The position numbers and the translations under genes are program-made. This document shows positions 22,710 to 38,880 of a DNA stretch of 64,000 bases, in pieces (the stretch's first letter is position 1; each line of letters starts with the position of its first letter). Origin of the DNA: Escherichia phage JES2013; sequence record KC690136; one strand, written 5' to 3'. Under the pieces are notes generated by a model. The model saw nothing but the letters and a program-made list of their open reading frames with translations. It had not been told where the DNA came from and did no database searches.

Positions 22710-22933
22710 TGAAAGTTAAAGTTTTAGATTCAAGCTTCTATATTGGTCAGGAGCCTTTAGTGGGTAAAGTGTTTACCGCTGTCCCTAACGAAGATTATCC
22801 TGATCTTTTAAAAATAAAGGGCGCAGATCTTATTGCCGCTGGTGCATCTCAGGACTGCTTTGACAGCCAGTGGACCTACAACTTTGCCCTAGGTGAGGAT
22901 GTAGAGATAGTGGAGGATGATCATGAAGGTTAA
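22706..22933 (+). CDS. small acidic protein, MKVK family paralog
   Basis: MMKVKVLDSSFYIGQ...IKGADLIAAGA...EIVE; closest paralog is the next gene. Confidence 0.55.
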   Translation: MMKVKVLDSSFYIGQEPLVGKVFTAVPNEDYPDLLKIKGADLIAAGASQDCFDSQWTYNFALGEDVEIVEDDHEG

Positions 22934-23177
22934 AATTCTTGACTCTAACGTCTACTTGGGGCAATCCTTCCTGAAAGGAAAGGTCATCCCTGCGGTATAC
23001 TTTGAAGGGTTGCCGTGGGATGATCCTGTGCGGCAACATCACAGTTATGTAGGCCACAACGTGGTGTTTATCTTAGGATCAGACCTGATCACCGCTGGTG
23101 CACCTGAATATTATTTCGGGGAAGAGTCCTATTATGCCTTTGGGGTAGGGTCAGATGCAGATATTGTAGAGCTGTGA
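22917..23177 (+). CDS. small acidic protein, MKVK family paralog
   Basis: MIMKVKILDSNVYLGQ...LGSDLITAGA...DIVE. Confidence 0.55.
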   Translation: MIMKVKILDSNVYLGQSFLKGKVIPAVYFEGLPWDDPVRQHHSYVGHNVVFILGSDLITAGAPEYYFGEESYYAFGVGSDADIVEL

Positions 23178-23189
23178 TGGGTAACCGTT

Positions 23190-23588
23190 GTGAAAAATAA
23201 ACTGTTCAAAGTTACAATGAAAATTCGCGGAGCTTGGAGCGTAAAGCAAGGGCGTATCCCAGAATTTGAGAAAGATTTCTACGTAGTCTCCACCTCGGAG
23301 GAGGCTGCATGCTGGCAGGCTGGCTATGCCTATGCAAGAACCTGGTACGAAGGATACCAGACTGGGGGCTATGACGGAGAAATTATCAGCAAGGGTGTAG
23401 AAGAAATTAATGTGTTGACAAGTGAAAAAGTTTTTGTTATAGTGCATCCAGATTCCAGAGTGAAGCATTACTGGAATGCCAGAACAAAAACTTGGACACC
23501 GTTTGCAGATTCTGCTACGCCACTTTTAAACCAGAAAGCTCTTGACTCTGCCCCAAGTTATGGGGTTGTTGAAGAAAAGCTAAACTGA
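23190..23588 (+). CDS. hypothetical protein (paralog of 25399-25794)
   Basis: VIVHPDSRVKHYWNARTKTWTP vs VMRHPHSNIAYYWDVLNNEWTP. Confidence 0.5.
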   Translation: MKNKLFKVTMKIRGAWSVKQGRIPEFEKDFYVVSTSEEAACWQAGYAYARTWYEGYQTGGYDGEIISKGVEEINVLTSEKVFVIVHPDSRVKHYWNARTKTWTPFADSATPLLNQKALDSAPSYGVVEEKLN

Positions 23589-23605
23589 AACAGTGAGGTG
23601 TCACC

Positions 23606-23896
23606 ATGATGGATTTAATTCTAAATATTGATAACGCAGAAGAATTTAAAGACGATGGTGTAACAAGCATGGGCAAACCATGCTCTGCTAAGGTTGACTC
23701 AAAATGGACCTACAAGTTTGACGGAGAGATCTTCGCAAATGATGAGAAGGTTGTAGATGCTGCAGCCATTTTAAACGCTCTAGGGTACGACCCTGTGAAT
23801 TCTTTGATCAAGGATCCTGTTGAGTTTGCAGAGTATGTTCGAAAAATGGCAGATCTTGCTGTGGATATTTTAAAAACTATCGACAACAAGCTGTAA
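23606..23896 (+). CDS. hypothetical protein
   Basis: Track ORF. Confidence 0.45.
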   Translation: MMDLILNIDNAEEFKDDGVTSMGKPCSAKVDSKWTYKFDGEIFANDEKVVDAAAILNALGYDPVNSLIKDPVEFAEYVRKMADLAVDILKTIDNKL

Positions 23897-23902
23897 AAAC
23901 TG

Positions 23903-23931
23903 TTGACACAACGCTTCAGATTTAGTATCAT
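23903..23931 (+). promoter_or_regulatory. sigma70-type promoter
   Basis: TTGACA (23903-23908), 17-nt spacer, TATCAT (23926-23931). Confidence 0.45.
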
Positions 23932-23978
23932 TGTTTTCAAAGAGGGTTTGGTTCCCTCTTCTTTAAAAGGAACATGTT

Positions 23979-24296
23979 GTGCAAATTGAAATCACTGGCA
24001 ACGTAGAGATCACTGAAGGTATGGTGTCTTTCATTTCCCACAAAATGTCTAAGCTGGAGCGTTTGCACCCCTCTGCCAACTATGCACGTGTGAGTGTAAA
24101 AGTTGAAAATGATCACCAGGAAGTCATGGCGTTCATTTTTGACACTTCCGGAAAAGAAGTTATTGCCAAAGCTAAAGGCAGTAACGCTTACGAGGCAACT
24201 GACCGTATGGTAGATGTTGCAGCACGTCAGTTGGCTAAATGCGGTGGAAAGAAAGGTAAAGGGAAAGGCAAAGTAAAGATTGACTTTGGAGAATGA
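23979..24296 (+). CDS. hpf: ribosome hibernation promoting factor homolog (HPF/RaiA, S30AE family)
   Basis: GTG start; MQIEITGNVEITEG...KLE...VKVEN...ARQLAK aligns along its length with E. coli HPF MQLNITGNNVEITEA...KLE...LKVEK...ARQLTK; Lys/Gly-rich tail. Confidence 0.75.
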   Translation: MQIEITGNVEITEGMVSFISHKMSKLERLHPSANYARVSVKVENDHQEVMAFIFDTSGKEVIAKAKGSNAYEATDRMVDVAARQLAKCGGKKGKGKGKVKIDFGE

Positions 24297-24305
24297 GGTG
24301 CTACA

Positions 24306-24407
24306 ATGGGCGTGATTAAGAAATTAGTCCCAAATGTAGAGATTGCATGCTTTGAAATTATGTTTGCAATCGCAGTTGTAGTTAATGTGTTAGGTTACGG
24401 CTATTAA
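24306..24407 (+). CDS. small hydrophobic peptide (33 aa)
   Basis: GAGGTG RBS then ATG 24306; one TM helix. Confidence 0.3.
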   Translation: MGVIKKLVPNVEIACFEIMFAIAVVVNVLGYGY

Positions 24408-24433
24408 TATCAAATAATTGAGGAGACCTCTAA

Positions 24434-24703
24434 ATGAAAATTAAATTATTCAAAACTGAGCTGGCAGACAAAAACTGTGGACTGGTTGAAGGCATGATCG
24501 TTGAAGCACAACCAGTGGACTACATGAAGGTAGTTCGTGATGCCTTGGGTGAAGGCTTTGATCTGATGGAGCCAGCTCTGCGAGAAGATGTTATCGAGAT
24601 GGCTAAAAAGCACACACCTGAAGGCTTGGTGGTGTTTGTTGCACCGGGTAACGGAGAAGAGTTGATTGTAACTCCTGATGTGTATGAGATTGTAGAAGAG
24701 TAA
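24434..24703 (+). CDS. small acidic protein, MKVK family paralog
   Basis: MKIKLFK start, C-terminal YEIVEE; GAGGAG RBS. Confidence 0.5.
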   Translation: MKIKLFKTELADKNCGLVEGMIVEAQPVDYMKVVRDALGEGFDLMEPALREDVIEMAKKHTPEGLVVFVAPGNGEELIVTPDVYEIVEE

Positions 24704-24798
24704 TCCTGCTCGGATTAGCATACTTCTCTCAATAAAAAGAAAAGTTTGTAATTATTTGTGGGAAAGGAATCCCCATCTCTTGCCAGAGGTGATACTAT

Positions 24799-25062
24799 AT
24801 GATTGTTTATTTTAAAACTTCAGGTGGATACCCTGATTCTCAAAGCTTGATCGGAAAAACGTGCACAGCATACTCACCTCTTGATGAGGAGGTAAGCGAT
24901 ATTCTACGAGATATGTATCGGATTGATCCCCAAAAAGCTTTTGATCAAAACCTTGTATTTGTCAAGGGCTCAGACATGAAGTCTTTGGGAGCATTCCCTG
25001 AAGCAGATGATGATGCCGTTTATTCGTTCATGACTCCTTTTGAAGCTATGGTTGTTGGGTGA
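24799..25062 (+). CDS. small acidic protein, MKVK family paralog
   Basis: VFVKGSDMKSLGA motif shared with family. Confidence 0.5.
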   Translation: MIVYFKTSGGYPDSQSLIGKTCTAYSPLDEEVSDILRDMYRIDPQKAFDQNLVFVKGSDMKSLGAFPEADDDAVYSFMTPFEAMVVG

Positions 25063-25066
25063 GAAT

Positions 25067-25399
25067 ATGAAAGTACGATTTATTGGTGAAACAATTCCTG
25101 TGCATCTCCGGTCGCCTGAAGATTCTGCAGATCTTGCATCTCAGAAGGCGAGAGGTTATGATAAGAAAGTAATCTCAAACGCTGTAGAACTTGAGGCTAC
25201 TAGTTTACCTGACCCTGCCGCATTCTTTAATCATTATGGATACTATTTCAGCAATCTGATGAATATCGGTGAGCTTGTGTTTATTAGTGGTGGAGAAATT
25301 GTTAGCAAGCTTGGCGGCGATCCGGATGTCTTTCATGAAACCTGTCCTTTTGCATTTGTGGTAGGTTCAGATGTGGAAGTTATTGAGGAGGTGCGGTAA
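25067..25399 (+). CDS. small acidic protein, MKVK family paralog
   Basis: MKVRFIG start (internal ATG of track ORF 25040); C-terminal VEVIEEV. Confidence 0.5.
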   Translation: MKVRFIGETIPVHLRSPEDSADLASQKARGYDKKVISNAVELEATSLPDPAAFFNHYGYYFSNLMNIGELVFISGGEIVSKLGGDPDVFHETCPFAFVVGSDVEVIEEVR

Positions 25400-25794
25400 T
25401 GGTAAGACTATACCGTGTTGAGTATAGCTCAGATACTGTATACAACGTAAGAAGCAAAGATCGCAGCGACAGAGTGCAAGAAATGTATGTTCTTGCCGAC
25501 AGTCCGTTATCTGCAGCGTTCAAGGCAGGGTCTCTTGCATCTCGTTGGAAATTTGAAGGTGGATCTTTCTATGAAGAAACCCTTGAAGATTCTGTTGTTA
25601 TTTCTTCTGCAGAGGTTTCAGATGACTACGAAGGGAAAAAGTTCGTAATGCGGCACCCACACAGCAACATTGCGTACTACTGGGATGTTCTGAACAACGA
25701 GTGGACCCCAGATCTTCAGAAGGCCACTGTGCTAACACCGTTTTTGGCAGATAAGTTTCCACCAGAAGGTAATTTATCCGCACTGTTTCAGTAA
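25399..25794 (+). CDS. hypothetical protein (paralog of 23190-23588)
   Basis: Shared HP.S...YW...N.WTP core. Confidence 0.5.
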   Translation: MVRLYRVEYSSDTVYNVRSKDRSDRVQEMYVLADSPLSAAFKAGSLASRWKFEGGSFYEETLEDSVVISSAEVSDDYEGKKFVMRHPHSNIAYYWDVLNNEWTPDLQKATVLTPFLADKFPPEGNLSALFQ

Positions 25795-25812
25795 TTTTCT
25801 TGCACACAGGTG

Positions 25813-25841
25813 TTGACAACGCCAACCCTGTGTGAAATAAT
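25813..25841 (+). promoter_or_regulatory. promoter-like element flanked by an 8-bp inverted repeat
   Basis: TTGACA 25813-25818 with AATAAT about 17 nt downstream; CACACAGG (25803-25810) / CCTGTGTG (25827-25834) bracket the -35 box. Confidence 0.4.
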
Positions 25842-25870
25842 ACCTTCATCTTAACAAGACAGGAGACCGA

Positions 25871-26131
25871 TTGATGAAGATTAAATTGAAAAACCTTGAA
25901 ACGGCAGAGATTCAGGACGGTGTGGATTTCCGTTCTAAAGATGGTGACATCTTAGAGGTAAATATTCCAACCTACGAGCTGATCAAAGGTTTTGGCAACG
26001 TCCCCGAGGAAGGTATCGCAGACGTTCTTATAATGTTAATCGTTAGTGGGACAGTGTTCTTGGGGGAAGGTGAGAACGCTATTGCAATCCCAAGCCATTT
26101 TTATGAAGTAGTTGACGAAGAGGCGCTGTAA
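25871..26131 (+). CDS. small acidic protein, MKVK family paralog
   Basis: MMKIKLKNL start, C-terminal EVVDEEAL. Confidence 0.5.
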   Translation: MMKIKLKNLETAEIQDGVDFRSKDGDILEVNIPTYELIKGFGNVPEEGIADVLIMLIVSGTVFLGEGENAIAIPSHFYEVVDEEAL

Positions 26132-28933: not shown

Positions 28934-29095
28934 ATCTGGTGCACGATTGCATACCTTGGACAGATAATCTCCTTACAGAGCGTTTAAGAGCTTCCTACAA
29001 ACAACTCTCTTTTTCGAGCGTAGCGAGAACGCACGTCCGTTTTGACCAAAATCACCATACGCTCGGATTTTAACCAAACCCTCGCGGCGTTTCTG

Positions 29096-29124
29096 TTGAC
29101 ACATTGCCGCTCCAGTGATAATAT
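29096..29124 (+). promoter_or_regulatory. sigma70-type promoter
   Basis: TTGACA (29096-29101), 16-17-nt spacer, GATAAT/TAATAT. Confidence 0.5.
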
Positions 29125-29144
29125 CCACACATCATTTGGAGAAT

Positions 29145-29246
29145 ATGGAATACACAATGAAAACATTGTCCGAAGTTTTAGTGGTGATCCTGATGATCAT
29201 TACGTCCATAGCGGCTGTTGCCGGAATACTCACGGGTGGAACATGA
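29145..29246 (+). CDS. small hydrophobic peptide (33 aa)
   Basis: GGAG RBS then ATG 29145; MEYTMKTLSEVLVVILMIITSIAAVAGILTGGT. Confidence 0.35.
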   Translation: MEYTMKTLSEVLVVILMIITSIAAVAGILTGGT

Positions 29247-29455
29247 TCAACACACATGCATCTGAAGAGACATCAAAAGGAGTGACTATATGTCCCTTGG
29301 CTGAGCCAGTGAAAGAGGAAAACTTCGATTCTGAAGATTCTCCATCTTCGCTCCAGGTAGACCCTGAGGCTGATGACCTAACGTGGGAAGACATCGTAGA
29401 TATCTGGTTCTCTGTTATGCCTGAGCACGAAGAGTTCAGGGGTGGTAGACTATGA
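29243..29455 (+). CDS. small acidic protein (70 aa)
   Basis: Internal ATG of track ORF 29042-29455; the upstream part overlaps a promoter and the small peptide gene. Confidence 0.3.
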   Translation: MINTHASEETSKGVTICPLAEPVKEENFDSEDSPSSLQVDPEADDLTWEDIVDIWFSVMPEHEEFRGGRL

Positions 29456-29495
29456 AGCACCGAGCCCACACAAGTTCCTCATGCTAAAGCATGGC

Positions 29496-30682
29496 CTGAA
29501 GAGGCAAACGTGCATAATTCCTGTGCATCGGAACGTATGAAACCTTGTTCACACTCTCATTTCCAGAGGAGATTTTATGAAGATAGAAATATTTGGTGGA
29601 GCTGACAACACTCGTGGCCTGATTTACCTTGAATTCGATGAATCATACCTACCAGAGGTGTTAAATATAGACTCTGTTGCGGAGGCTTTGGGAGTAAACC
29701 CTAAAGAACTCCACTCTTGTGCTGAGATCGATGGTTGGGAAGAGACCATGAACATTGATTTCAGTGAAGTAGAGGATGAACCGCTGGACTGACACACAAT
29801 TAGCTGCCCGGCTAAAGTGCTGGAAGCACCTATAACACATCTTTCAACTAAATTTCCCACCACAACAATCACTTACCTCCCATACATGACTGTTTGCTTG
29901 TTTAGTGAGCAGTCATGCCTTGACATTCTTGCCTATCCTGATAAAATTAAGTTCTTCTCTTTTCTTTTACCGAGTAATTCGGGTTTTCTGTTCTCTTCGG
30001 TTTGAAGGGGTATGGAGATACACCTGAGTGAACAGGGTGAACAACCGAACATTTGGCTATGGCATTAGCATGGCGAAGCGGACGGGTGACGAAAGAGGGG
30101 CCGGAGGACACCAGTCACTGCCATATGGTATATGGGTGATAACCTGAAGAGTCTGAATAAGTGTTTAAGTACCAGTCAGAGGAAAAGGTGAATGGTAGCC
30201 GAAGGGGGAGGGGGGTTTCTTGTATCTTTAATTTGTATATTATGTATACACTTGTAAACCAATCTCATTTGAATTTGTTTACCACACAAAGTGGATAGAG
30301 ACAAATATTACCTATTAAACTTGAATTATTTATAGAAAATACCACAACACTACTTAAGTCTTTGATTTTACACACAAATCCTGCAGATATTCACCCTCCA
30401 TATTTAACATACTTGTAACATATTCCATACTCTACCTGCCCGATCAATTCACCCAACTACATCCCCATATTTTCCCTGTCTGTACTACCCCTGCCCCGCC
30501 GGGAGTCCCGTCATATCTGGCTTTCCAGCAAATATCACACCCACAAATATCATTGCCTGAAGAGGGTTTCGTCCCATAATACATGCCTTACCTGAAGAGC
30601 GCTTCATATACCCCGTAAATTTTTTAATTGACCCCCTCCCCGCCGCCGGAGGGGTCGGCTTTTCCCACACAGACCTGAAGAG
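29496..30682. repeat. five dispersed copies of 9-mer CCTGAAGAG
   Basis: Exact copies at 29496, 30143, 30556, 30591, 30674. Confidence 0.5.
29577..29792 (+). CDS. small acidic protein
   Basis: GAGGAG RBS; MKIEIFGG start; last gene of the + block. Confidence 0.5.
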   Translation: MKIEIFGGADNTRGLIYLEFDESYLPEVLNIDSVAEALGVNPKELHSCAEIDGWEETMNIDFSEVEDEPLD

Positions 30683-31210
30683 TCAGCCAGAAATATCTGA
30701 ATGGACCCAATTCTGCCCTGTTATGAGCCGTAGCGACTGGAGTGCTGCCAGGCGGACGAAATGGGAATACTTCTCATTCTTATAACAATTCTCAAATATC
30801 GAGGCAGTGAGGCAAATTAATAGGTAAGGCCGTTCACATAGTGGCACAACATTTGCAGTCTATCTGATGTGGTTGAATGAGAATACCTATCATTGTGAGA
30901 ATAGTTATCATTACGGGCAATTTAACATAATACCCATTATGCGCACCACTGGCGATACATACAGGGATTGATAACATGAGTTACTGTTTACGCATATAAC
31001 AATTATATTTCTTATCATTTGTGTGGGATATAGTTAGCAGCCGATAGATTAGATATTGACCTGCGGACTTCTGACCGTCTAGACGTCTAAACGCCCACAC
31101 AACAAGGCTTATACATACATCGCTGAATGTAAACATGGCCGCAAAAATGCTACCATACAAGATTGTAAATTTTTCATGCAGCACTTGACAAAGAGGAGAA
31201 AAACTTGTCT

Positions 31211-31440
31211 GACACTTTAGACATACTGGTGACACAATATGACACTTTAGACTTAATTGACATGCCTGACTGTTTACGCTGTCACTATTCGCGCTATTAC
31301 TATTCACTCCCTTTACTGTTCACGCTCTTACTGTTTACATGCTTAATGGTTTACATGCTTAATAGACTGCATGTCTAATAGTTTACATAGCTAACTGTTC
31401 ACATACTTATCATTTACATGATTGACTGTTTACACAGAGA
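31211..31440. repeat. iteron-like array: GACACTTTAGAC x2, about 8 copies of TGTT(T/C)ACA, 16-bp tandem GTTTACATGCTTAAT
   Basis: Direct repeats read in sequence (31211-31222, 31241-31252; 31273-31435). Confidence 0.55.
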
Positions 31441-31447
31441 TGATAAG

Positions 31448-31731
31448 CCATGACATTCGTTTGCATGACAATAATTAACAAGATAACAATTGACAAGCTA
31501 ACAGCCAACAAGCTGACAATTAACTTGTTTACAATAGATGACATAATATAAAAGCAGGGCAACTATTAGAAGATCTATAGTTGCCTTGCTTGTTATGTCA
31601 TGATTAACTAAATACAAGGCAACTATGATCTGATTAATAGTTTGCAAACAAACTATCACGGGGGTGATGGTTACTGCTTTTATATTATGTCGCGACTCCG
31701 TCGCGCCATGCCATTCGTTTGCATAGTTGCC
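31448..31731. repeat. GGCAACTAT inverted/direct repeats and duplicated GCCATG(A/C)CATTCGTTTGCAT
   Basis: Palindrome GGCAACTAT-N10-ATAGTTGCC (31558-31586); further copies at 31618, 31723; 19-bp repeat at 31448-31466 and 31706-31724. Confidence 0.5.
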
Positions 31732-32340
31732 TTATTGTTACAGATAAAATAATTGTATTGTTAATTATTTCTTATCTTTCTATTAGTCATCTAATGATTC
31801 CAGTCAATATAGTAATGTACAGTAAACATTAGACGACTAAAGATTTATCTGCTTATAATAACTTACCGTGACAATTTCGGACTGTTTACGAAAAATGTTG
31901 GCACCTAAGCTGATTTATGTTATGCAGTTTACACGAATAATTATTTTATGCAGGTATTGACTATTCCATTATTCTATGGTTGGAATAAATACTTAGCAGA
32001 CTATAGAATGGTGAGCGTACGTAAATTCTGAGATCTGGCGGCTATAGTTATACTCGATTTTTCACGTAGAGCACGCTTTTGTGGTTATGTAAGTGTATGA
32101 CTTATAAAGATTTTTAGTTGTTGACAAGACACTGAAGATATGCATCAGGTTAAATTTTGTGCAATAGCTGCATTACGTGCAATTTTGGAAGGAAAAACGG
32201 GTAAAAATAGCCCTGCTACCACACAATGAAAAGTTATGCAATAGTTATTTTACATGTATATTTGTACAGTGTGTGGGGTTGATGGCTCGTCAATTATTCC
32301 ACTTGCCAGGTAGGGCCGTTTATGGTAGGGGGAAGATCAG

Positions 32341-32367
32341 ACAAAAAGAAAGGGGCCTAAGCCCCTT
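32341..32367 (-). terminator. intrinsic terminator ending the - strand block
   Basis: Minus strand: AAGGGGC-TTAG-GCCCCTT followed by TCTTTTTGT, just after stop of 32386-32805. Confidence 0.65.
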
Positions 32368-32385
32368 GATAATTCAGTTAAAAAA

Positions 32386-32805
32386 TTATAATGATTCGTA
32401 TATTTCAAAAATCCGATTTGCCAGGTCGTTACGGTACCGGAATTTTTCATCACGTTTGATCATAAGATCTTTATAGCCGTACTCTTTAAGCACTTCATTA
32501 ACTTTATGGCGGCACACCTTCATATTATCCTGAGCGTCACCAATAAACCTGTTGCTATGGTGCATGGCTTTAATTTCTTCTTCCAGGACCAGGGCAACTA
32601 TGCGGACCGGATCAAGCTGATAGGCGGTAACATCAATGCGGCATTGTAAACGGCTTTTTACGTCTGCCACCGGATATACTGCAACCTCTTCCCCGTCAAC
32701 ATTGACAATAATTAGTTTACCATCGATTTCGAATCCTTTCGCCGCCGGACCGTGACAAAAAGCGTTATCAAAGCTATATGCCGGATTATTAGATTTAATG
32801 TTCAT
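32386..32805 (-). CDS. hypothetical protein
   Basis: Track ORF; AGAGGTAAAAACACC RBS; last gene of - block. Confidence 0.5.
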   Translation of the reverse strand: MNIKSNNPAYSFDNAFCHGPAAKGFEIDGKLIIVNVDGEEVAVYPVADVKSRLQCRIDVTAYQLDPVRIVALVLEEEIKAMHHSNRFIGDAQDNMKVCRHKVNEVLKEYGYKDLMIKRDEKFRYRNDLANRIFEIYESL

Positions 32806-32854
32806 GGTGTTTTTACCTCTTAGTTAATTTTCTTACAACTTCCCTTTAAAAAAG

Positions 32855-32883
32855 AATATAGCAAAACTGCCGATCCTTGTCAA
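32855..32883 (-). promoter_or_regulatory. sigma70-type promoter (minus strand)
   Basis: Minus strand TTGACA (32883-32878), 17-nt spacer, TATATT (32860-32855). Confidence 0.5.
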
Positions 32884-32950
32884 TAAGGATAGCATAATTT
32901 TTATGTGATCAAGGGGCTTTATTGCCCCCCTGACCATGTAACTTGTTGTA

Positions 32951-33214
32951 TTATTTGTTATTCATCCAGTTTTCCCAAGCTGCCTGATAATCTGCTTCAC
33001 TGCGGCGGATCTCTTCTTGCTCTTCAAGTCGGATCTCTTCTTCCAGGTACCCCAGGATATCGGCTTTTTTGGTCTGGCGTAACATCCAATCATCTTTTTT
33101 ACGGGTAAAGATCTTATATGCTTTCTCGCAAACCTCTTTTTTGCTACCTTTTTGGACTTCAAGAACTTTGTAGGCCATGTACTGAACTAGTTTGAGCTGA
33201 TCAAGACGTTTCAT
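32951..33214 (-). CDS. hypothetical Lys/Glu-rich protein
   Basis: Track ORF. Confidence 0.45.
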   Translation of the reverse strand: MKRLDQLKLVQYMAYKVLEVQKGSKKEVCEKAYKIFTRKKDDWMLRQTKKADILGYLEEEIRLEEQEEIRRSEADYQAAWENWMNNK

Positions 33215-33274
33215 GATGTTTACCTCTTTATGCGGTTCTGATTAGTGGGCCTTTTGGCCCGTGTCATTATCTTA

Positions 33275-33547
33275 TTACTTATGGCGGCAGAATTCAAGCG
33301 TTTTTAATTGATAATCTTCCTCAGCCTGGAGTACGACCGCCTCGATCATTTCGTTGGCATTGTTAAAGCCATAACCTTTAGCGAAATCATCCGCGCCACC
33401 TTCGTGATCATGTTCTGCGTTCATCGCTTCCACAAAATGGAATTCCAAATTGTTGAGGTAGGGGCTTGATGTTCCGTCCTCTTTTTCGATGAGATCCCAA
33501 ATAGCATTAAAACGTGATTCTACTTCTTGATTAATCCAGCTTGACAC
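33275..33547 (-). CDS. hypothetical acidic protein
   Basis: Track ORF. Confidence 0.45.
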   Translation of the reverse strand: MSSWINQEVESRFNAIWDLIEKEDGTSSPYLNNLEFHFVEAMNAEHDHEGGADDFAKGYGFNNANEMIEAVVLQAEEDYQLKTLEFCRHK

Positions 33548-33758
33548 AGTGTTTTCCTCTCTTCTGGTTGTTGTGTGGGCACTTTTGCCCCTTCAAGATA
33601 AATGTTACCCCACCCCATGGCAGATGTCAACGGTTTTTATAGTTCTTATATGACAGGCAGGCCCGGTGATTGTCTCCCCCCGTCGCCAGGTGCCTGCCGT
33701 GAAACAAGTATAACAAAAAACAGGACCATTGCAAGCCCTGTTTTGTAGTTTATAAATA

Positions 33759-33950
33759 TTATATTTTTTCGCCTATGTAGTCCGGTCGGTTTTTCTCTGT
33801 CATGCGCTTTAGCAATTCTTGCATGTTGCTTATGGCTTGTAGTGTATCCCCTTCCAGGCTTGAATCGACATAATCAGGATCGTCTATGACCTTTCTATGA
33901 TTATGATAACGCAGTACCGCCAATACCTTTCTGACTTGTTCGATATTCAT
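33759..33950 (-). CDS. hypothetical small protein
   Basis: Track ORF. Confidence 0.4.
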   Translation of the reverse strand: MNIEQVRKVLAVLRYHNHRKVIDDPDYVDSSLEGDTLQAISNMQELLKRMTEKNRPDYIGEKI

Positions 33951-34099
33951 TTTTACCGCTCTTTAAAACAAGGTGCCAACCGTTTCCAATAGATCACTGA
34001 CTGCCAGGACAATACCGATCAGCACATATCTAACCATAAGGGGAAAGAGCGCCAATATTGCCACCACAATCCCCAAGGTGATAATTATCTTTCTCATGG

Positions 34100-34393
34100 T
34101 TAACGGTTCACGTAAGTTTTCCCGTTCACGGTTATGGGCAGATCCTCCAGGTCTGGATCTTCCTTAAGGTCGCGAGCAAGCTCACCGCACCGGATACCCT
34201 CGAATCCGTAGTACTCTGTTGTGCCGTCCTTAAAAGTTTTAGCGGCAAGGCATAAGCGATAAGTAACCCCGATTTGATTGACGGCATGAATATCCGTTAG
34301 ATTAACCTCTTTTGCCAGCTCTTTAGCCATTACAGGCGCATTAAGTCCAACAACCAGGGCAACCACTGCGATCATCTTTTTCATTGTGTCCAT
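34100..34393 (-). CDS. secreted/periplasmic small protein
   Basis: N-terminal signal peptide MKKMIAVVALVVGLNAPVMA. Confidence 0.5.
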   Translation of the reverse strand: MDTMKKMIAVVALVVGLNAPVMAKELAKEVNLTDIHAVNQIGVTYRLCLAAKTFKDGTTEYYGFEGIRCGELARDLKEDPDLEDLPITVNGKTYVNR

Positions 34394-34475
34394 CCTCTTT
34401 CTGCTACGTTTAAGGCGGCGGTAACCGCCTGTTTATGCTTTGTTGGTTAATTTTCGGGTATAGGTATAAATTAAA

Positions 34476-34691
34476 CTATGCTGTACGCTCAACTATAACA
34501 ACGGCTTGAGGGATCTCACCTTCAACCACTATCAAGGCTTTTTTCTGCGTGATAGATATCTTTACCCGCTTCAGCGTGGCGGTAAAATCTTTCATTTCGT
34601 CACGTGGTGTTTTAGTGCAATACCAGATCTCAGGCTTGCCGATCTGTAAGTTGCGTAAAAATTCTGTTTTGCCTGTTTTGTTAGTGATCAT
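34476..34691 (-). CDS. hypothetical small protein
   Basis: Track ORF. Confidence 0.4.
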   Translation of the reverse strand: MITNKTGKTEFLRNLQIGKPEIWYCTKTPRDEMKDFTATLKRVKISITQKKALIVVEGEIPQAVVIVERTA

Positions 34692-34700
34692 TTGGCAACC

Positions 34701-34805
34701 TCACCCGATACCGTTGGAAGACAAGATCGCATTAGCCATGGTTGCAATCAGGCCAATACCCAGGGCAATAACCAAGATCACTGCATCGATTAATTTCTGT
34801 TTCAT
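34701..34805 (-). CDS. small hydrophobic peptide (34 aa)
   Basis: ATG at 34805; single TM helix; weak RBS. Confidence 0.25.
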   Translation of the reverse strand: MKQKLIDAVILVIALGIGLIATMANAILSSNGIG

Positions 34806-34882
34806 GGTGTTTATTCTCTTCTGTTAGTAACCTTATTCATGGGGCCGCTACCACAGCCCCAAGGTAAGGCAGCTATGTGCTT

Positions 34883-35128
34883 TTAGTGTTTCATTCCAAC
34901 CATCGCGGCACGGATCGCCGTAGTGCTGTACTTGAAGCCGTCCGGGGTCTTATCTTGTCCGGTTAGCTCCAGAAAAAGCATCATATCCCGCGCCGCATCA
35001 TTACGATTAGCATTGGCGTTAATAAAGCCTTGGGCCAACCGGTACAATGACTCATCGTTATTAATCCAAAGGCTTACATTCCAATGAGTTTTGTTTTTGT
35101 AACCGTTATAACCTTTATTGCTTTTCAT
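34883..35128 (-). CDS. hypothetical protein
   Basis: Track ORF; AGAGGTAAACACC RBS. Confidence 0.45.
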   Translation of the reverse strand: MKSNKGYNGYKNKTHWNVSLWINNDESLYRLAQGFINANANRNDAARDMMLFLELTGQDKTPDGFKYSTTAIRAAMVGMKH

Positions 35129-35219
35129 GGTGTTTACCTCTTCTTTGTTCCAGGTGGCGGATCATTCTACCACCTTATGTATTATGCTTTGTTAGATGGT
35201 TGTTTGTTGTCAAACTATT

Positions 35220-35399
35220 TTACCGATAATCATCATATGCTTTATTTACCTGGCGAATATAACATTCAAAAGCCAAATCAATAGATTTATATTCACGGAT
35301 ATACTCACCATAGGAAACCACATACATTTCTATAGCTTCCTCATATGCGAGGAGAATAGAATCTAAGCCTACGATCTCAGTCTTTGCAATAATAGCCAT
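35220..35399 (-). CDS. hypothetical small protein (59 aa)
   Basis: AGAGGA RBS then ATG 35399; just under the track's 60-aa cutoff. Confidence 0.4.
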   Translation of the reverse strand: MAIIAKTEIVGLDSILLAYEEAIEMYVVSYGEYIREYKSIDLAFECYIRQVNKAYDDYR

Positions 35400-35475
35400 G
35401 ATTTTTTATCCTCTTTGTGGTTGGTGGGGTTCGTTGCCCCCTTTGATTTATATATTACAGTCTTATATGGTCATG

Positions 35476-35709
35476 TCAACTATTTTCAAAAAATTTTTCT
35501 GCTGTGATATTCTTCCCGGTAGGGTTCGCTACTTTCAAAATTTTATCATGCACTGGACGCCCAAAAGAATAAGCGCCGTACACAGTAAACCAATAATCGC
35601 CGTCAGGTTGTACTATTACTGCCGCATATGGTACGCCTTTTTCGTTTTTGCTGACAAAATAGATCACGTTGCCATTAATAGCCTCGGCGCGTTTAATTTG
35701 TTCCATCAT
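35476..35709 (-). CDS. hypothetical protein
   Basis: Track ORF. Confidence 0.45.
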   Translation of the reverse strand: MMEQIKRAEAINGNVIYFVSKNEKGVPYAAVIVQPDGDYWFTVYGAYSFGRPVHDKILKVANPTGKNITAEKFFENS

Positions 35710-35765
35710 GATGATTTGCCTCTCTTTATTTTCATAATTGGGGGGCCTTTTCGGCCCCGCCAGGT

Positions 35766-36116
35766 TTATTTATTGATAGCGTGCAGCGGGAAAGGTACGC
35801 CAGGTTGATAGATAACCTTTACAACCTCATCAGGACAAAAGAAGTTGCAGAACTCACCGCAATAGGCCTCATCCTCTTTCAACTCTTCATCAACATACTC
35901 AAAAAAGTAGTCGATGCTTGGATAATCTTGACCAGGGTTATAATCAACCATAGTGAGGACCAGTTCAAGATCATTGCGGATGATATGCATACCAGCTTTT
36001 AAATACTTCGCTTCCATTTTTACTACATCGCCAGCGGTAACAATAGCCATGGTTTTAACTCCTGTTTCTGTTAATGATTGGAGGCATAACCCCCCTCGAC
36101 AACTCTTATTATCCAT
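35766..36116 (-). CDS. hypothetical protein
   Basis: Track ORF. Confidence 0.45.
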   Translation of the reverse strand: MDNKSCRGGLCLQSLTETGVKTMAIVTAGDVVKMEAKYLKAGMHIIRNDLELVLTMVDYNPGQDYPSIDYFFEYVDEELKEDEAYCGEFCNFFCPDEVVKVIYQPGVPFPLHAINK

Positions 36117-36275
36117 ATTGTAGGGCTTGATGCAAGTACTTCTTTAAAAAATTTTTAAGTGCCTTGGAGGCCGCTGTAACGCCAAAATAATAAAGGCCAT
36201 GCAACCGCATAGCCTTTATGTGATTATATCGCTGCAGGCCCTGCTAGGGGCCTTATTTTGCATCATTTGCCGGAA

Positions 36276-36584
36276 CTATACAGAGAAAACATCGTTCACA
36301 ATAGCGATCACAATGCCGCCCACCTTGTCACGGTCAACAATGCACAAATCACCATAGATCATGTGGTAGTCTGGATGATCTTTCACGGAATAGTCAATGA
36401 GCGTTTTCTTGTCGTCCAGCTTTGTAACTTCCATTCTCATAACGATATGAGAATCATCAAAGGCATTATTCCGAAAAGTCATAGCCTGACCACCAGGGCA
36501 CCCAGTGATCTCCACTTCCACACCGTCTACGATCTGACCATCAAAGAAATAAAGATTATTAGCCAGGATAAACATGTTTATCAC
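36276..36584 (-). CDS. hypothetical protein
   Basis: AAGGAG RBS before ATG 36584. Confidence 0.5.
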   Translation of the reverse strand: MINMFILANNLYFFDGQIVDGVEVEITGCPGGQAMTFRNNAFDDSHIVMRMEVTKLDDKKTLIDYSVKDHPDYHMIYGDLCIVDRDKVGGIVIAIVNDVFSV

Positions 36585-36623
36585 TCCTTGTTAACTGCGT
36601 GTTATTTTACCACGATTAAAATT

Positions 36624-36668
36624 TACTTTACTGATGGCCCTGGCGTCAAGGCCATCTAAAAATAAATT
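36624..36668 (-). repeat. 45-47-bp repeat with hairpin GATGGCC...GGCCATC, copy A
   Basis: TTTACTTTACTGATGGCCCTGGCGTCAAGGCCATCTAAAAATAAA; directly after stop of 36668-36868. Confidence 0.6.
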
Positions 36669-36868
36669 TACAGGCCTACAATCTCTTTGATTCGTTTAAC
36701 TGCTGCCTCAGCGCCTTGGGGGTAGAAATTATGGTAACCGATCACGCGAGTGATACTAATCGCAGTTTGATGATCTTCATAATAGCCCTTGAAGATTTCT
36801 TGACCGTCAATCAGCACGGCAATTTTTTCTTCTTTTTTGAAGTTAATAACGCGGATATTGTTGCTCAT
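36668..36868 (-). CDS. hypothetical small protein
   Basis: Track ORF. Confidence 0.45.
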   Translation of the reverse strand: MSNNIRVINFKKEEKIAVLIDGQEIFKGYYEDHQTAISITRVIGYHNFYPQGAEAAVKRIKEIVGL

Positions 36869-37009
36869 TTTGTTTCTCCTTTCTGGTTTTTGTGTTGGTG
36901 GGGATTAGCTCCCCGTTGATTATTATTATCCATATTTCGGACCGGATTGCAACACCCCGGAAGAAAAATTTTTTGAAAAAGTTAGGCCCCCAGGGATCGG
37001 GGGCCGTTA

Positions 37010-37129
37010 TCAGTTACTTACAGCGATAAAATACATCCCTACGCCTAACAATATTTCAAGGGCGATGATCTCAAGCCATACCATAACCCGGCGCACCTTA
37101 TCGGTGCGGGGCTTATCCTTGGTTGTCAT
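37010..37129 (-). CDS. small membrane peptide (39 aa)
   Basis: GGGGGAG RBS then ATG 37129; C-terminal TM helix. Confidence 0.3.
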   Translation of the reverse strand: MTTKDKPRTDKVRRVMVWLEIIALEILLGVGMYFIAVSN

Positions 37130-37371
37130 CGTCTCCCCCTTTCATCCTGGTAGTAGTGACGTGGTTTACAATGGCCCCCAGGAGTACCATCACCACGCAC
37201 ATCACAAGAAAAATTATCTCTGTCGTTGTTCGATCCATTGTTATAAAATTCCTTAAGATCAGGCCTGAAAATAAAGCGTTCGTTATTGAATCCATCACGC
37301 CAGGCGGCTGGCTTCAAATCTTCATCAAAGGGATTAATTAACGTGGTATTATTTAAACGGCTGGCCCACAT
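37126..37371 (-). CDS. hypothetical Asn/Asp-rich protein
   Basis: ATG 37371 (internal to track ORF 37126-37389). Confidence 0.35.
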   Translation of the reverse strand: MWASRLNNTTLINPFDEDLKPAAWRDGFNNERFIFRPDLKEFYNNGSNNDRDNFSCDVRGDGTPGGHCKPRHYYQDERGRR

Positions 37372-37720
37372 ATTTTCTATTCCTCTCAAATAGGCGATCC
37401 GCCTCAGTTAAACAAATCTCATGGGCGTGATCTCTGGTTTTAGCTTCATCGAAAACCTGTTGTGCAAGGCTGCAGCGTAGGGAGACTGGAAGATCACTAT
37501 AATAGGCGTTGACAAATGTTTGCGCGTCATACAGGTCGGAAAATACTTTACCCTTTCTATTATCGCCTTTGTCAACAATTGCAAGGATAACAAGTACAAT
37601 AGTTGCAACCACCCCCAGGAAAATAGATATAATAAACCATAAAAAGGCGGATCTACCCATCTTGCCAGCGATCCAGGCGTTAAACAAGGCAACTAATACG
37701 GCCAAAATAATAAATTCCAT
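37349..37720 (-). CDS. membrane protein (two TM helices)
   Basis: AAGAGGT RBS then ATG 37720 (MEFIILAVLVALF). Confidence 0.5.
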   Translation of the reverse strand: MEFIILAVLVALFNAWIAGKMGRSAFLWFIISIFLGVVATIVLVILAIVDKGDNRKGKVFSDLYDAQTFVNAYYSDLPVSLRCSLAQQVFDEAKTRDHAHEICLTEADRLFERNRKYVGQPFK

Positions 37721-37784
37721 TCTATGTACCTCTTTTGCAGTTCTGTTTAACAATAAGGCGGCAAATATGCCGCCTGTTACCTGA

Positions 37785-38165
37785 TTAAAAATTATCGCCG
37801 TAAATCTTTCCGCTTTCTGCCCACACCACCACGCGGGGCATACTATCCCACACGTCTTGTTTTAGATTGAGCGCGTGCAATTCTTCGGTGGTGCCCATAC
37901 CAGGCACGGGCTGATTGTATACTGCAAAACGACCACCTGCATAATCATAGGCCAGGGTTAAATCACACTGAATCATCTTTTTGATCATGGCGTTGAGCAT
38001 AGCGTTAGCCGCATACTGGTCACGTTTTAAAGGCAACTCTTTGATTAGTTTGCGATAGTTTTCAATGTGATCGCACACTGTTTCACGTGGAAGATCTTTC
38101 ATATCCTCGCGAAAGGTAACCAGGTTAAACATAACGGTGTCAATAGCTTTAGTAGTGTTTTTCAT
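37785..38165 (-). CDS. hypothetical protein
   Basis: AAGAGGAAAA RBS; 5' hairpin upstream. Confidence 0.5.
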   Translation of the reverse strand: MKNTTKAIDTVMFNLVTFREDMKDLPRETVCDHIENYRKLIKELPLKRDQYAANAMLNAMIKKMIQCDLTLAYDYAGGRFAVYNQPVPGMGTTEELHALNLKQDVWDSMPRVVVWAESGKIYGDNF

Positions 38166-38256
38166 AATGTTTTCCTCTTTGTTTTGTGTGGGGCAAACGT
38201 CTTGCCCCCCCTTGAGTTTTAATATAGCAAGTTTTTAGATTATTGCAACACTTTAT

Positions 38257-38880
38257 TTATGAAAAACTCATCTCTCCATATTCATCCACATCAAACCGCC
38301 AATCATTGGCCTCAATAAGGCCGATCAGGTTTTCGGTAGTGAACTGTTCTAGATAGGCCTCCTCCAGGTCTACGTAAACCTTGCGGGATAGCTCCCGTAC
38401 CGTCTCGGTGATCAGCTCTTCCAGGTCTTCCACTTTGTTTTCTTGTTTGGCGGTCAGATCTAGCCAGGTGGTATCAATGTATCCGCTTACAGTGTTTTCA
38501 TGGCTGTAATGGCTGTACTTGTCGCGTTCAATACTGGCTGATAACTCGCCATCGTGCATTGTGCCAAACAAGTGACGAATTGATCGGAACTTGGTCAGGG
38601 CCTTTACTTTACGCAAGAATTTTTCTAAATCCACGTTTTCAGCACTGATTGACGCGCCGTCACCCTGGCACCAAAAGCCGGACCAATGTACATCGGTATC
38701 TTCAAGGCCGTACTCTGGAAAAACTTGCTCTTTATAATATTCAATTACACTTTCTGCGAAAAAATCCTCTCCGCTGTGTTCTTCTCTTTCGCGGACCATT
38801 TCAATAGCTTTTTCTTTTTGTTCGTCGGTCAGCACGTCGAAAGATAAATTGCAACCTGTGGTAATGTTAACGGTGGTCAT
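38257..38880 (-). CDS. hypothetical acidic protein
   Basis: Track ORF; promoter and 5' hairpin upstream. Confidence 0.5.
   Translation of the reverse strand: MTTVNITTGCNLSFDVLTDEQKEKAIEMVREREEHSGEDFFAESVIEYYKEQVFPEYGLEDTDVHWSGFWCQGDGASISAENVDLEKFLRKVKALTKFRSIRHLFGTMHDGELSASIERDKYSHYSHENTVSGYIDTTWLDLTAKQENKVEDLEELITETVRELSRKVYVDLEEAYLEQFTTENLIGLIEANDWRFDVDEYGEMSFS

What the first reader, a model, noticed from the sequence alone, without database searches (positions are those of the whole stretch)
31448..31731. Palindromes and duplicated 19-bp element next to the iterons
GGCAACTAT-N10-ATAGTTGCC forms a 28-bp palindrome centred on AGATCT (31558-31586), with further GGCAACTAT/ATAGTTGCC copies at 31618 and 31723. 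GCCATG(A/C)CATTCGTTTGCAT occurs at 31448 and 31706, and GTCGCGAC is a self-complementary 8-mer at about 31690. These look like operator or resolution-type sites.
Basis: seen in the sequence. Interest (0 to 1): 0.5.

Follow-up and report, generated by a model that had tools for sequence, protein, structure and literature searches.

The report
Conserved stem-loop module beside phage genome end
The palindromes and the duplicated 20-bp element are real, and they belong to a hairpin-rich non-coding module that sits a few hundred bases inside the physical end of this rV5-like phage genome and is conserved in layout across the whole phage subfamily, so it is more likely a signal for handling the DNA ends than a gene-regulation operator.

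Summary
All the motifs exist within 1 bp of the stated coordinates and occur far more often than chance. The window is an rV5-like coliphage (Vequintavirus).

Records with defined ends place a 459-bp direct terminal repeat at window 30751-31209. The "iterons" start at the first base after it, and the finding lies 238-536 bp inside the left genome end.

The GGCAACTAT palindromes sit inside a perfect 18-nt long-range inverted repeat (31540-57 / 31674-91). Next to it is a GC-rich block (31688-31707, minus strand).

Block plus inverted repeat recur in the 12 Vequintavirinae sequences examined, from at least four named genera. The arms are always perfect but differ in sequence. Of 18 pairs, 11 changed on both sides and none on one side.

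In the Klebsiella phage KPP-1, whose terminal repeat is published, the module lies at the same distance and orientation from the repeat.

The 20-bp duplication also has lineage-specific counterparts in other genera.

I found no Rfam match, no recombinase and no dispersed copies. Only one record, FV3, lacks the module, through a deletion between the two 20-bp repeats.

My best reading is a DNA-level, terminus-proximal cis element for concatemer processing, packaging or replication (confidence about 0.45). A small structured RNA is the main rival.

The parts
30751..31209 (.). Direct terminal repeat (DTR, 459 bp) that marks the physical genome ends. This is context, not part of the finding.
   Evidence: The first 459 bp of HdK5 record MK373780 equal its last 459 bp, and they map to window 30751-31209. 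Korf et al. 2019 report 458-bp terminal redundancies for HdK5 and EdH4. The YN3 record also starts at 30751, and the Pr121LW and Aya records are opened at 31210. The boundary sequences are identical in 14 aligned relatives.
31210..31446 (+). Short-repeat arrays that abut the inner DTR boundary: TGACAC-type repeats from 31210 to about 31260, then TGTTTAC-type "iterons".
   Evidence: families D1-D7, D17. This is the most variable stretch of the gap. V18-type records lack the TGTTTAC units but keep the TGACAC repeats.
31447..31466 (+). Left copy of the 20-bp direct repeat, GCCATGACATTCGTTTGCAT.
   Evidence: (D11). It is the left endpoint of the FV3 deletion.
31467..31539 (.). Variable ACAA-rich spacer. 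In many relatives it is replaced by a module of GC-rich hairpins.
   Evidence: Alignment of 17 relatives.
31540..31557 (.). Distal arm of the long-range inverted repeat (GACATAATATAAAAGCAG).
   Evidence: (I1). Covariation across genera is shown.
31555..31588 (.). Palindrome 1 (hairpin A): CAGGGCAACTAT, a 10-nt loop that contains GATC, then ATAGTTGCCTTG. These are sites 1 and 2.
   Evidence: (I8). The Murica annotators called it a minus-strand terminator. The loop varies in relatives while the arms do not.
31589..31614 (.). Variable spacer, or apical loop in the extended-hairpin fold. A 33-nt insertion sits here in rV5, phita32 and C7.
31615..31646 (.). Palindrome 2: CAAGGCAACTAT (site 3), a 10-11-nt spacer that contains GATC, then the degenerate right arm ATAGTTTGC.
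   Evidence: (D9, I20).
31651..31672 (.). Hairpin B, AACTATCAC-GGGG-GTGATGGTT, directly before the proximal arm.
   Evidence: flags it as terminator-like on the plus strand. It appears in the folds. It is invariant in relatives.
31674..31691 (.). Proximal arm of the long-range inverted repeat (CTGCTTTTATATTATGTC).
   Evidence: (I1).
31688..31707 (-). Subfamily-conserved GC-rich block. It reads GGCGCGACGGAGTCGCGACA on the minus strand. It contains GTCGCGAC (31689-96) and the local hairpin CGCGAC-TCC-GTCGCG (31691-31705).
   Evidence: It is homologous to GGCGCGA(C/G)CGTAG(G/C)GAGCGACA in LTH01, A5-4, PVP-SE1, EspYZU15, Av-05, TH18, KPP-1 and IMG/VR contigs.
31705..31724 (+). Right copy of the 20-bp direct repeat, GCCATGCCATTCGTTTGCAT. 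It abuts the block.
   Evidence: (D11). Analogous lineage-specific direct repeats are anchored at the block in other genera.
31723..31734 (-). Site 4 (ATAGTTGCCTTA), which lies outside the inverted repeat. It has extended 19-nt complementarity to site 3.
   Evidence: (I6).

Best explanation
The finding is the Vequintavirus version of a conserved, hairpin-rich, non-coding module that acts in cis at the DNA level next to the genome terminus.

Anatomy, which is shown:
- a 459-bp direct terminal repeat (30751-31209);
- short-repeat arrays that abut it;
- then a module made of a perfect 18-bp long-range inverted repeat closing about 116 nt of inner hairpins (the GGCAACTAT palindromes and hairpin B);
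- a sequence-conserved GC-rich block immediately outside the proximal arm;
- a 20-bp direct repeat bracketing the whole.

Mechanism, which is inferred. When this DNA becomes single-stranded during replication or concatemer processing, the inverted repeat snaps back into a branched stem-loop. A conserved phage protein, most plausibly terminase or a replication or processing factor, recognises the adjacent block. Together they help generate or duplicate the terminal repeat, or start packaging or replication at the left end. This would be analogous to the short repeats and the hairpin-forming palindrome next to the T7 terminal repeat.

The genus-specific GGCAACTAT units and the 20-bp repeats would be structural or accessory protein-binding parts of this module. 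They would not be operators of a gene.
For: 1. Position. The module lies 330 nt (distal arm) to 479 nt (block) inside the DTR boundary. In KPP-1 the DTR is published at 116316-116829 and packaging is called T7-type by PhageTerm. There the same block, on the same strand, lies 507 nt from the DTR end, and a perfect 21-nt inverted repeat starts 308 nt from it.
2. In 12 sequences from at least four named genera the block is always followed by a perfect 16-21-nt inverted repeat enclosing 71-188 nt.
3. Covariation. Of 18 pairs, 11 changed on both sides and 0 on one side only. 99.4% of cells are paired, 0 of 500 shuffles reach this, and slid controls give 28-52%. With no G.T/A.C states the repeat is equally perfect on both strands. 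That fits DNA pairing or arm-to-arm copying better than an RNA read from one strand.
4. Both strands fold equally well as ssDNA, with z = -11.6 and -9.9. KPP-1 folds likewise, z = -10.3.
5. In an 80-84%-identity relative the core is about 95% identical, and 31650-31745 shows no change.
6. No promoter is conserved upstream of the block in the different genera (my reading of the sequences). The block is not a repeated promoter motif within the window.
7. The only natural loss, in FV3, is a deletion exactly between the flanking 20-bp direct repeats. From general knowledge, that is the classic outcome of hairpin-stimulated slippage.
8. The module is single-copy and phage-restricted.
Against: - FV3, a published viable phage, lacks both arms, all inner palindromes and nearly the whole block. 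Either the module is not essential for plaque formation or the FV3 record carries a cloning or assembly deletion. I could not tell which.
- Termini are documented for only two genera, Vequintavirus and Mydovirus. One paper reports a PhageTerm headful call for another Vequintavirus, and the rV5 paper assumed circular permutation.
- The distance from the DTR to the module is not fixed within the genus. V18-type phages have about 110 nt there instead of 330.
- There is no direct evidence of protein binding, hairpin ends or a packaging role.
- The T7 analogy rests on my memory of Chung, Nardone and Hinkle 1990 and Dunn and Studier 1983. I did not verify it here.
- Perfect Watson-Crick covariation does not by itself exclude an RNA stem.
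Confidence: 0.45

Rival explanations
1. The module is a small structured non-coding RNA gene of about 105-190 nt. The inverted repeat would be its closing stem, the palindromes its inner helices, and the conserved block its 5' leader (minus strand) or 3' tail (plus strand).
For: - RNA folds are very stable on both strands, with z = -8.6, -7.4 and -7.8.
- The stem covaries.
- In Vequintavirus the distal arm carries an extended -10 (TGACATAAT). Hairpin B plus CTGCTTTTATATT looks like a plus-strand terminator.
- On the minus strand hairpin A is followed by TTTTATATTAT, and the Murica annotators called it a terminator.
- Each arm in every genus contains a -10-like CAyWAT.
- C-rich CCCCUCC-type segments follow the proximal arm in several genera.
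- Dispensability in FV3 would be unsurprising for an accessory RNA.
Against: - No Rfam family matches at E<=1.
- No -35/-10 pair is conserved across genera on either strand. The TG of the extended -10 is not conserved outside Vequintavirus (my reading).
- The stem shows no G.U state in 180 cells.
- Stability is strand-symmetric, so no strand can be assigned.
- I found no transcriptome study for the subfamily.
Confidence: 0.25
2. The four CARGGCAACTAT units, and perhaps the 20-bp repeats, would be binding sites for a phage or host DNA-binding protein. That protein would regulate something locally, for example by looping between sites 1/2 and 3/4.
For: - Four copies of a 12-mer occur in alternating orientation, strongly above chance.
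- Site 4 lies outside the inverted repeat, so it is not needed for the closing stem.
- The arms are invariant while the loops vary.
- Direct repeats cannot pair, so the 20-bp duplicates, and their lineage-specific analogues in other genera, are best explained as protein sites.
- This reading is compatible with the best explanation as a sub-component.
Against: - There is no adjacent regulated gene or conserved promoter. The module sits in an ORF-free gap between convergent terminators.
- The neighbouring ORFs have no recognisable DNA-binding domain.
- The motif is absent from the homologous module of other genera.
- The half-site geometry of 9 bp, 10-bp spacer and 9 bp is equally well explained as a hairpin.
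Confidence: 0.12
3. The hairpins would be back-up bidirectional transcription terminators or insulators. They would keep read-through from the two convergent gene blocks out of the terminal-repeat region.
For: - Each arm is A-rich on one strand and T-rich on the other, and it is immediately preceded by a stable hairpin when read from either side. I saw this in TP4, KPP-1, Av-05 and LTH01.
- The Murica and Alma records annotate a terminator here.
- The rV5 authors expected bidirectional terminators between genes 163 and 164 and did not find them.
Against: - Canonical terminators already follow the last gene on each side, at about 30636-30665 (+) and 32350-32367 (-).
- A terminator role does not explain the 26-nt sequence-conserved block, the long-range perfect inverted repeat or the direct repeats.
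Confidence: 0.08
4. The segment would be a selfish or mobile insertion (MITE-like, with inverted ends and a 20-bp target duplication), or else a site-specific recombination (res/dif-type) locus.
For: The segment 31467-31704 is bracketed by 20-bp direct repeats. FV3 looks like an empty site. The segment also has inverted repeats near its ends.
Against: - It is single-copy in the window.
- It is absent from 5,426 E. coli genomes. Its only plasmid hit is a 137.6-kb record that is probably the phage itself.
- It lies at a fixed position relative to the DTR in different genera.
- The homologous block is present in all genera examined, so the module is ancestral rather than inserted.
- No recombinase is reported for rV5.
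- All 3 metagenome alleles are occupied.
Confidence: 0.04

Closest known systems
Phage T7/T3 concatemer-junction region: the terminal repeat, the flanking short-repeat arrays SRL/SRR, pacB/pacC, and the hairpin-forming palindrome proposed to prime duplication of the terminal repeat. From memory (Dunn and Studier 1983; Chung, Nardone and Hinkle 1990; Fujisawa and Morita 1997); not verified here.
   Same: Both have a short exact DTR, and PhageTerm calls KPP-1 packaging T7-type. Both have arrays of short repeats starting at the inner DTR boundary. Both have a palindromic or inverted-repeat element within a few hundred bp that could snap back. In both, the region is non-coding.
   Different: There is no sequence similarity. 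The host phage is a 137-kb myovirus rather than a T7-like podovirus. Here the stem closes a 71-188-nt branched insert and is coupled to a 26-nt conserved block. No functional data exist, and one natural isolate record (FV3) lacks the module.
Single-strand initiation or priming signals (ssi/pas, G4-type origins) and other ssDNA stem-loop origins. From memory.
   Same: Both are branched ssDNA stem-loops of about 100-200 nt. Structure is conserved more than sequence, and a short recognised sequence lies beside the structure.
   Different: Those elements act on ssDNA replicons or on lagging strands of plasmids. No link to PriA or DnaG was tested here. The location at a DTR terminus is not typical of them.
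phi29 pRNA gene, a structured packaging RNA encoded near the left genome end. From memory.
   Same: Both are terminus-proximal structured elements of about 120-175 nt in a non-coding stretch of a linear phage genome.
   Different: There is no Rfam hit, no conserved promoter and no evidence of transcription. The packaging motor class is unrelated.
Intrinsic (rho-independent) bidirectional terminators
   Same: Hairpins are flanked by an A-tract and a T-tract. The Murica and Alma records annotate the site as a terminator, and the scan flags hairpin B.
   Different: The long-range 18-bp repeat, the conserved block and the direct repeats have no role in termination. Primary terminators already exist on both sides.

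Membership tests
T7-type terminal-repeat processing/packaging region | Exact short direct terminal repeat with fixed ends | tested here: met
   The HdK5 record has identical 459-bp ends, which map to 30751-31209. Korf et al. 2019 report 458 bp. YN3, Pr121LW and Aya records open at the same boundaries. KPP-1 has a 514-bp DTR and is called T7-type. Read-level data for this particular phage were not available.
T7-type terminal-repeat processing/packaging region | Arrays of short repeats directly flanking the terminal repeat | tested here: met
   TGACAC-type and TGTTTAC-type repeats start at 31210, the first base after the DTR. No comparable array or inverted repeat was seen on the other side.
T7-type terminal-repeat processing/packaging region | Nearby palindrome able to form a snap-back hairpin | tested here: met
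   A perfect 18-bp inverted repeat with inner hairpins. ssDNA folding gives z = -11.6 and -9.9. The repeat covaries across genera.
T7-type terminal-repeat processing/packaging region | Required in cis for concatemer processing or packaging, with hairpin-ended intermediates | not testable with these tools
   This needs genetics or biochemistry. The FV3 record, which lacks the module, argues against strict essentiality if that record is correct.
Structured ncRNA gene | Match to a described RNA family | tested here: not met
   Rfam 15 gives nothing at E<=1 in 30000-33000 except a 21.9-bit miRNA chance hit, and nothing at gathering score in the whole window. ARAGORN finds nothing.
Structured ncRNA gene | Conserved promoter and terminator that define a transcript | tested here: inconclusive
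   Within Vequintavirus there is an extended -10 and terminator-like hairpins on both strands. My inspection found no promoter conserved across genera. No expression data were found.
Structured ncRNA gene | Covarying helices | tested here: met
   All changes are Watson-Crick to Watson-Crick with no wobble, which fits DNA pairing equally well.
Site-specific recombination site (res/dif/att) | Cognate serine or tyrosine recombinase encoded by the element | tested here: not met
   The rV5 genome paper never mentions integrase, recombinase or resolvase. Nine flanking ORFs have no significant Pfam domain. The whole genome was not scanned here.
Site-specific recombination site (res/dif/att) | Core of two inverted recombinase-binding arms around a 2-8-bp crossover spacer | tested here: not met
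   The arms are 9-12 bp around a 10-bp spacer, and the internal AGATCT is off-centre by 2 bp. The reference geometries are from memory.
Transcriptional operator | Repeated dyad sites that overlap or flank a promoter of a regulated gene | tested here: not met
   Dyad sites are present. There is no gene within about 650 bp, and the gap is bounded by convergent terminators.
Iteron-type replication origin accessory region | Iterons plus a cognate initiator, an AT-rich unwinding element and host-factor boxes | not tested
   Repeats and AT-rich DNA (33-35% GC) are present. No initiator was identified. The TGTTTAC repeats are missing in V18-type phages. GC skew turns here, but it tracks gene orientation.
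MITE-like mobile insertion | Multiple dispersed copies with terminal inverted repeats and target-site duplication | tested here: not met
   It is single-copy in the window. There is no hit in 5,426 E. coli genomes, and the one plasmid hit is a phage-sized record. The block is ancestral across genera.
Retron msr-msd | a1/a2 inverted repeats around a structured RNA, with an adjacent reverse transcriptase | tested here: not met
   The inverted-repeat architecture resembles a1/a2. No ORF adjoins the module, and the flanking ORFs have no RT domain.

The most novel reading that the evidence does not exclude
The block plus the covarying stem-loop would be the cis-acting signal that directs formation of the short direct terminal repeats in Vequintavirinae. 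It could work as a snap-back primer or terminase landing pad. More exotically, it could encode a terminus-proximal structured RNA that takes part in packaging. Either way it would be the first defined end-processing element for a large group of short-DTR myoviruses that are used in phage therapy.
Probability: 0.2. Interest if true: 0.7.

Novelty: new variant of a known kind. Interest (0 to 1): 0.5.

Why it matters
rV5-like phages (Vequintavirinae) are widely used as typing, biocontrol and therapy phages. Yet the rV5 genome paper labels this 1.7-2.6-kb gap only as "non-coding" and treats the genome as circularly permuted.

Placing the gap at the physical genome ends turns an anonymous repeat cluster into a concrete, mutable candidate for the packaging or end-replication signal. 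The candidate is a 26-nt block plus a stem kept perfectly complementary through at least 11 double substitutions across genera.

That has two practical uses. It matters for engineering these phages, because it shows where not to cut and what a transducing plasmid would need. It also matters for correct genome orientation and annotation.

If the module instead proves dispensable or transcribed, it would be a new phage ncRNA. Either outcome can be tested with standard experiments.

Tried and rejected
- Rfam (E-value mode on 3 kb, gathering mode on 64 kb) and ARAGORN found nothing.
- Literature. The rV5 paper gives only a "non-coding" label. I found no paper on an origin or on transcriptomics of Vequintavirinae. 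A search for T7 hairpin-processing papers returned only PacBio/AAV noise, so the T7 comparison rests on memory.
- Fifth CAGGGCAACTAT at 32590, inside the ORF164-like gene. It varies at wobble positions in relatives, and the gene is absent from several phages that keep the module. I treated it as chance.
- Block as a repeated phage promoter motif. The window has only this copy and one chance GGCGCGAC.
- A block-like CCGTAGCGAC just left of the DTR (about 30728). It is not conserved among Vequintaviruses, so I dropped it.
- Conserved pairing between the block-upstream segment and the insert (pseudoknot or alternative fold). It is present only in TP4, between site 4 and site 3, and not in other genera.
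- Termini of Seunavirus from SalP219 record ends. The 127-nt overlap is an assembler artefact that breaks at the inverted repeat, so it says nothing about the termini.
- Transfer of the DTR boundary motifs to other genera by fuzzy search failed.
- A metagenome scan for a second "empty" allele like FV3 found 3 contigs, all occupied.
- N4-type hairpin promoter (6-bp stem, GGA loop at 31691-31705). The hairpin is not conserved in the homologous block of other genera. From memory, these phages have no N4-like virion RNA polymerase. Rejected.
- Retron, MITE and res-site readings were rejected as set out in the membership table.
- Pfam and PHROGs on nine flanking ORFs gave only families of unknown function.

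Full report
**Identity and setting**

Window 30600-32400 is 100% identical to E. coli O157 typing phage 4 (KP869102). It is 89-95% identical to about 117 other rV5-like phages of the genus Vequintavirus.

The finding lies in an ORF-free gap. Plus-strand genes end upstream, with a terminator at about 30636-30665. Minus-strand genes end at 32386, with a terminator at 32350-32367. The rV5 genome paper shows this gap only as a box labelled "non-coding". It looked for bidirectional terminators between genes 163 and 164 and did not find them. It also treats the genome as circularly permuted.

**Checking the observation**

- GGCAACTAT occurs 5 times in 64 kb against 0.45 expected. Four copies lie within 177 bp, in alternating orientation.
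- The conserved unit is really the 12-mer CARGGCAACTAT.
- The duplicated element is a 20-mer at 31447 and 31705.
- AGATCT lies 2 bp off the centre of the palindrome.

- a perfect 18-nt inverted repeat at 31540-57 / 31674-91 that encloses the palindromes;
- a second, imperfect copy of the 28-bp palindrome;
- two further hairpins.

**Conservation within the genus**

I aligned 17 relatives. The stretch 31539-31745 is essentially invariant. Differences are confined to hairpin loops and the spacer 31589-31614, where rV5, phita32 and C7 carry a 33-nt insertion. In contrast, 31467-31538 and the iteron region are modular and variable.

A relative that is only 80-84% identical in the flanking genes (IMG/VR contig L019) is about 95% identical across the core. 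It shows no change at all in 31650-31745. The whole gap is more conserved than the neighbouring genes.

Two natural variants are informative.
- FV3 lacks everything between the two 20-bp repeats and keeps one repeat copy.
- V18-type phages lack the left repeat and all TGTTTAC iterons but keep the core.

All three metagenome contigs that carry the right-hand junction are "occupied".

**The genome ends are here**

Korf et al. 2019 state that the Vequintaviruses EdH4 and HdK5 have terminal redundancies of 458 bp. In the HdK5 record the first 459 bp equal the last 459 bp, and they map to window 30751-31209. An independent record (YN3) starts at exactly 30751. Two others (Pr121LW, Aya) are opened at exactly 31210. 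The boundary sequences are identical in all 14 aligned relatives.

So the "iterons" begin at the first base after the terminal repeat. The finding lies 238-536 bp inside the left end of the mature genome.

One paper reports a PhageTerm headful call for another Vequintavirus, so the literature is not unanimous.

**A subfamily-wide module**

More distant Vequintavirinae (LTH01, A5-4) have a gap at the same place. They share no GGCAACTAT, no 20-mer and no iterons with the window. They do share a GC-rich block of about 26 nt, followed by their own inverted repeat. The window's minus strand reads GGCGCGACGGAGTCGCGACA, and theirs reads GGCGCGACCGTAGGGAGCGACA.

A BLAST search with their module finds the block in Seunavirus, Avunavirus and other phages. 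An IMG/VR pattern scan adds more.

In all 12 sequences examined the block is followed at once by a perfect 16-21-nt inverted repeat enclosing 71-188 nt.

I counted pairs on an ungapped alignment of ten distinct arm pairs.
- 18 pairs were counted, and 7 of them are invariant.
- 11 pairs changed on both sides, and none changed on one side only.
- 99.4% of cells are paired.
- 0 of 500 shuffles reach the observed values, and slid controls give 28-52% paired.

One caveat applies. I located the arms by searching for complementarity, so the percentage paired is partly built in. The number of double changes among close relatives is not. Examples are CACGAGAG, CACGAGGG, CACGGGAG and CACTAGGG, each with a matching distal arm.

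Such fine-scale perfect compensation is not what two copies of a protein site would show. It indicates base pairing or arm-to-arm copying.

The proximal side is sequence-conserved: the block, the start of the arm, and GTAAC(C/T)C after the arm. The distal side is conserved only as its complement.

**Same place relative to the terminus in another genus**

For Klebsiella phage KPP-1 (Mydovirus) a 514-bp DTR at 116316-116829 and T7-type packaging are published. In that record:
- a perfect 21-nt inverted repeat starts 308 nt after the DTR end;
- the block lies 507 nt after the DTR end, on the same strand as in the window.

The window values are 330 and 479 nt. The sequences at the DTR boundaries are also similar.

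**The 20-bp duplication is also architectural**

In three lineages the roughly 18 nt immediately upstream of the block recur as a direct repeat further on. The sequence differs in each lineage. None was found in Av-05 or TH18. Direct repeats cannot pair, so they are best read as protein sites.

**Structure**

The window module folds into a closing stem, one long imperfect hairpin built from the GGCAACTAT units, and hairpin B.
- As RNA, z = -8.6 (plus strand) and -7.4 (minus strand).
- As ssDNA, z = -11.6 and -9.9.
- KPP-1 folds into a comparable branched structure, z = -10.3.

The strand symmetry and the absence of wobble pairs give no handle for choosing an RNA strand.

**Interpretation**

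I commit to a DNA-level, terminus-proximal cis element. It would be a snap-back stem-loop with an adjacent recognition block, serving generation or duplication of the terminal repeat, or initiation of packaging or replication at the left end. My confidence is about 0.45.

- Shown: the anatomy, the covariation, the position relative to the DTR in two genera, and the phage-restricted single-copy distribution.
- Inferred: single-strandedness, the recognising protein and the process served.

The analogy is to the T7 terminal-repeat region, with its flanking short repeats and a palindrome that forms hairpin ends. I recall this from the literature and could not verify it here (one search failed).

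The strongest counter-evidence is FV3. If its record is correct, the module is dispensable for growth.

**Rivals**

- A small structured RNA (0.25). Support comes from genus-level promoter-like and terminator-like features. Against it, there is no Rfam match, no promoter conserved across genera and no expression data.
- Protein-binding "operator" sites (0.12). This is plausible for the GGCAACTAT units and the 20-bp repeats as sub-components, but there is no gene to regulate.
- Back-up terminators or insulators (0.08).
- A mobile insertion or recombination site (0.04). This is contradicted by the distribution, the ancestry and the lack of a recombinase.

**Novelty and score**

In the held library I found no description of the block, the covarying repeat or their relation to the DTR. 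The kind of element, cis signals beside terminal repeats, is known. This version is undescribed and its function is unproven, so I rate it a new variant of a known kind with interest 0.5.

Noticed in passing
window 30751-31209: This 459-bp stretch is the direct terminal repeat, i.e. the physical genome ends, of this phage group. The rV5 reference paper and many records treat the genome as circularly permuted, and many records are opened at arbitrary points.
   Followed up: yes
window 29959-30608: An ORF-poor stretch that is 96-100% identical to a relative whose flanking genes are only 70-86% identical. It ends at the plus-strand terminator at about 30636-30665. It could be a conserved non-coding transcript or small unannotated genes; Murica annotates one 64-aa ORF here.
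   Followed up: no
window 31210-31446: TGACAC-type repeats start at the first base after the DTR, and their number varies between relatives. The TGTTTAC "iterons" are the least conserved part of the gap and are missing altogether in V18-type phages. That weakens their reading as essential origin iterons.
   Followed up: partly
window 30760-30778, 30876-30894, 30896-30912; L036 2714-2767 and 3297-3316: AATGAGAATnnTTATCATT-type repeats inside the DTR resemble a Fur box, a resemblance I draw from memory. Similar AATGAGAAT and AATGATAAGGATTATCATT units occur in the KPP-1 DTR and inside the inverted-repeat inserts of Seunavirus and Mydovirus.
   Followed up: no
window 32590-32601, within CDS 32386-32805 (-): A fifth exact CAGGGCAACTAT lies inside the ORF164-like gene. 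It is not conserved in phita32, FFH2 or V18, and the gene is absent from FV3, A141, APCEc02 and HdK5.
   Followed up: yes
L001 (KP869102) versus window: The "partial genome" record KP869102 is arranged differently from the window. Its bases 12110-16057 match window 60053-64000, and its bases 16451-25910 match window 28941-38400, at about 99.5%. The record is probably a scaffold of contigs in arbitrary order.
   Followed up: partly
L047/L048 (Salmonella phage SalP219, PP595732): The first 127 nt of the record repeat the last 127 nt, and the break falls exactly at the distal arm of the inverted repeat. This is an assembler overlap caused by the repeat, not a genome terminus.
   Followed up: yes
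PLSDB record CP057073 (137,565 bp): The only "plasmid" that carries the module is phage-sized and 87% identical to the query. It is probably a Vequintavirus genome deposited as a plasmid.
   Followed up: no
L031 (Av-05) 2491-2758: Av-05 and TH18 carry two distal copies of the arm. One is a 15-nt partner about 55 nt away, preceded by a GC-rich hairpin. The other is the perfect 18-nt partner 188 nt (Av-05) or 136 nt (TH18) away. The module can therefore be duplicated or nested.
   Followed up: no
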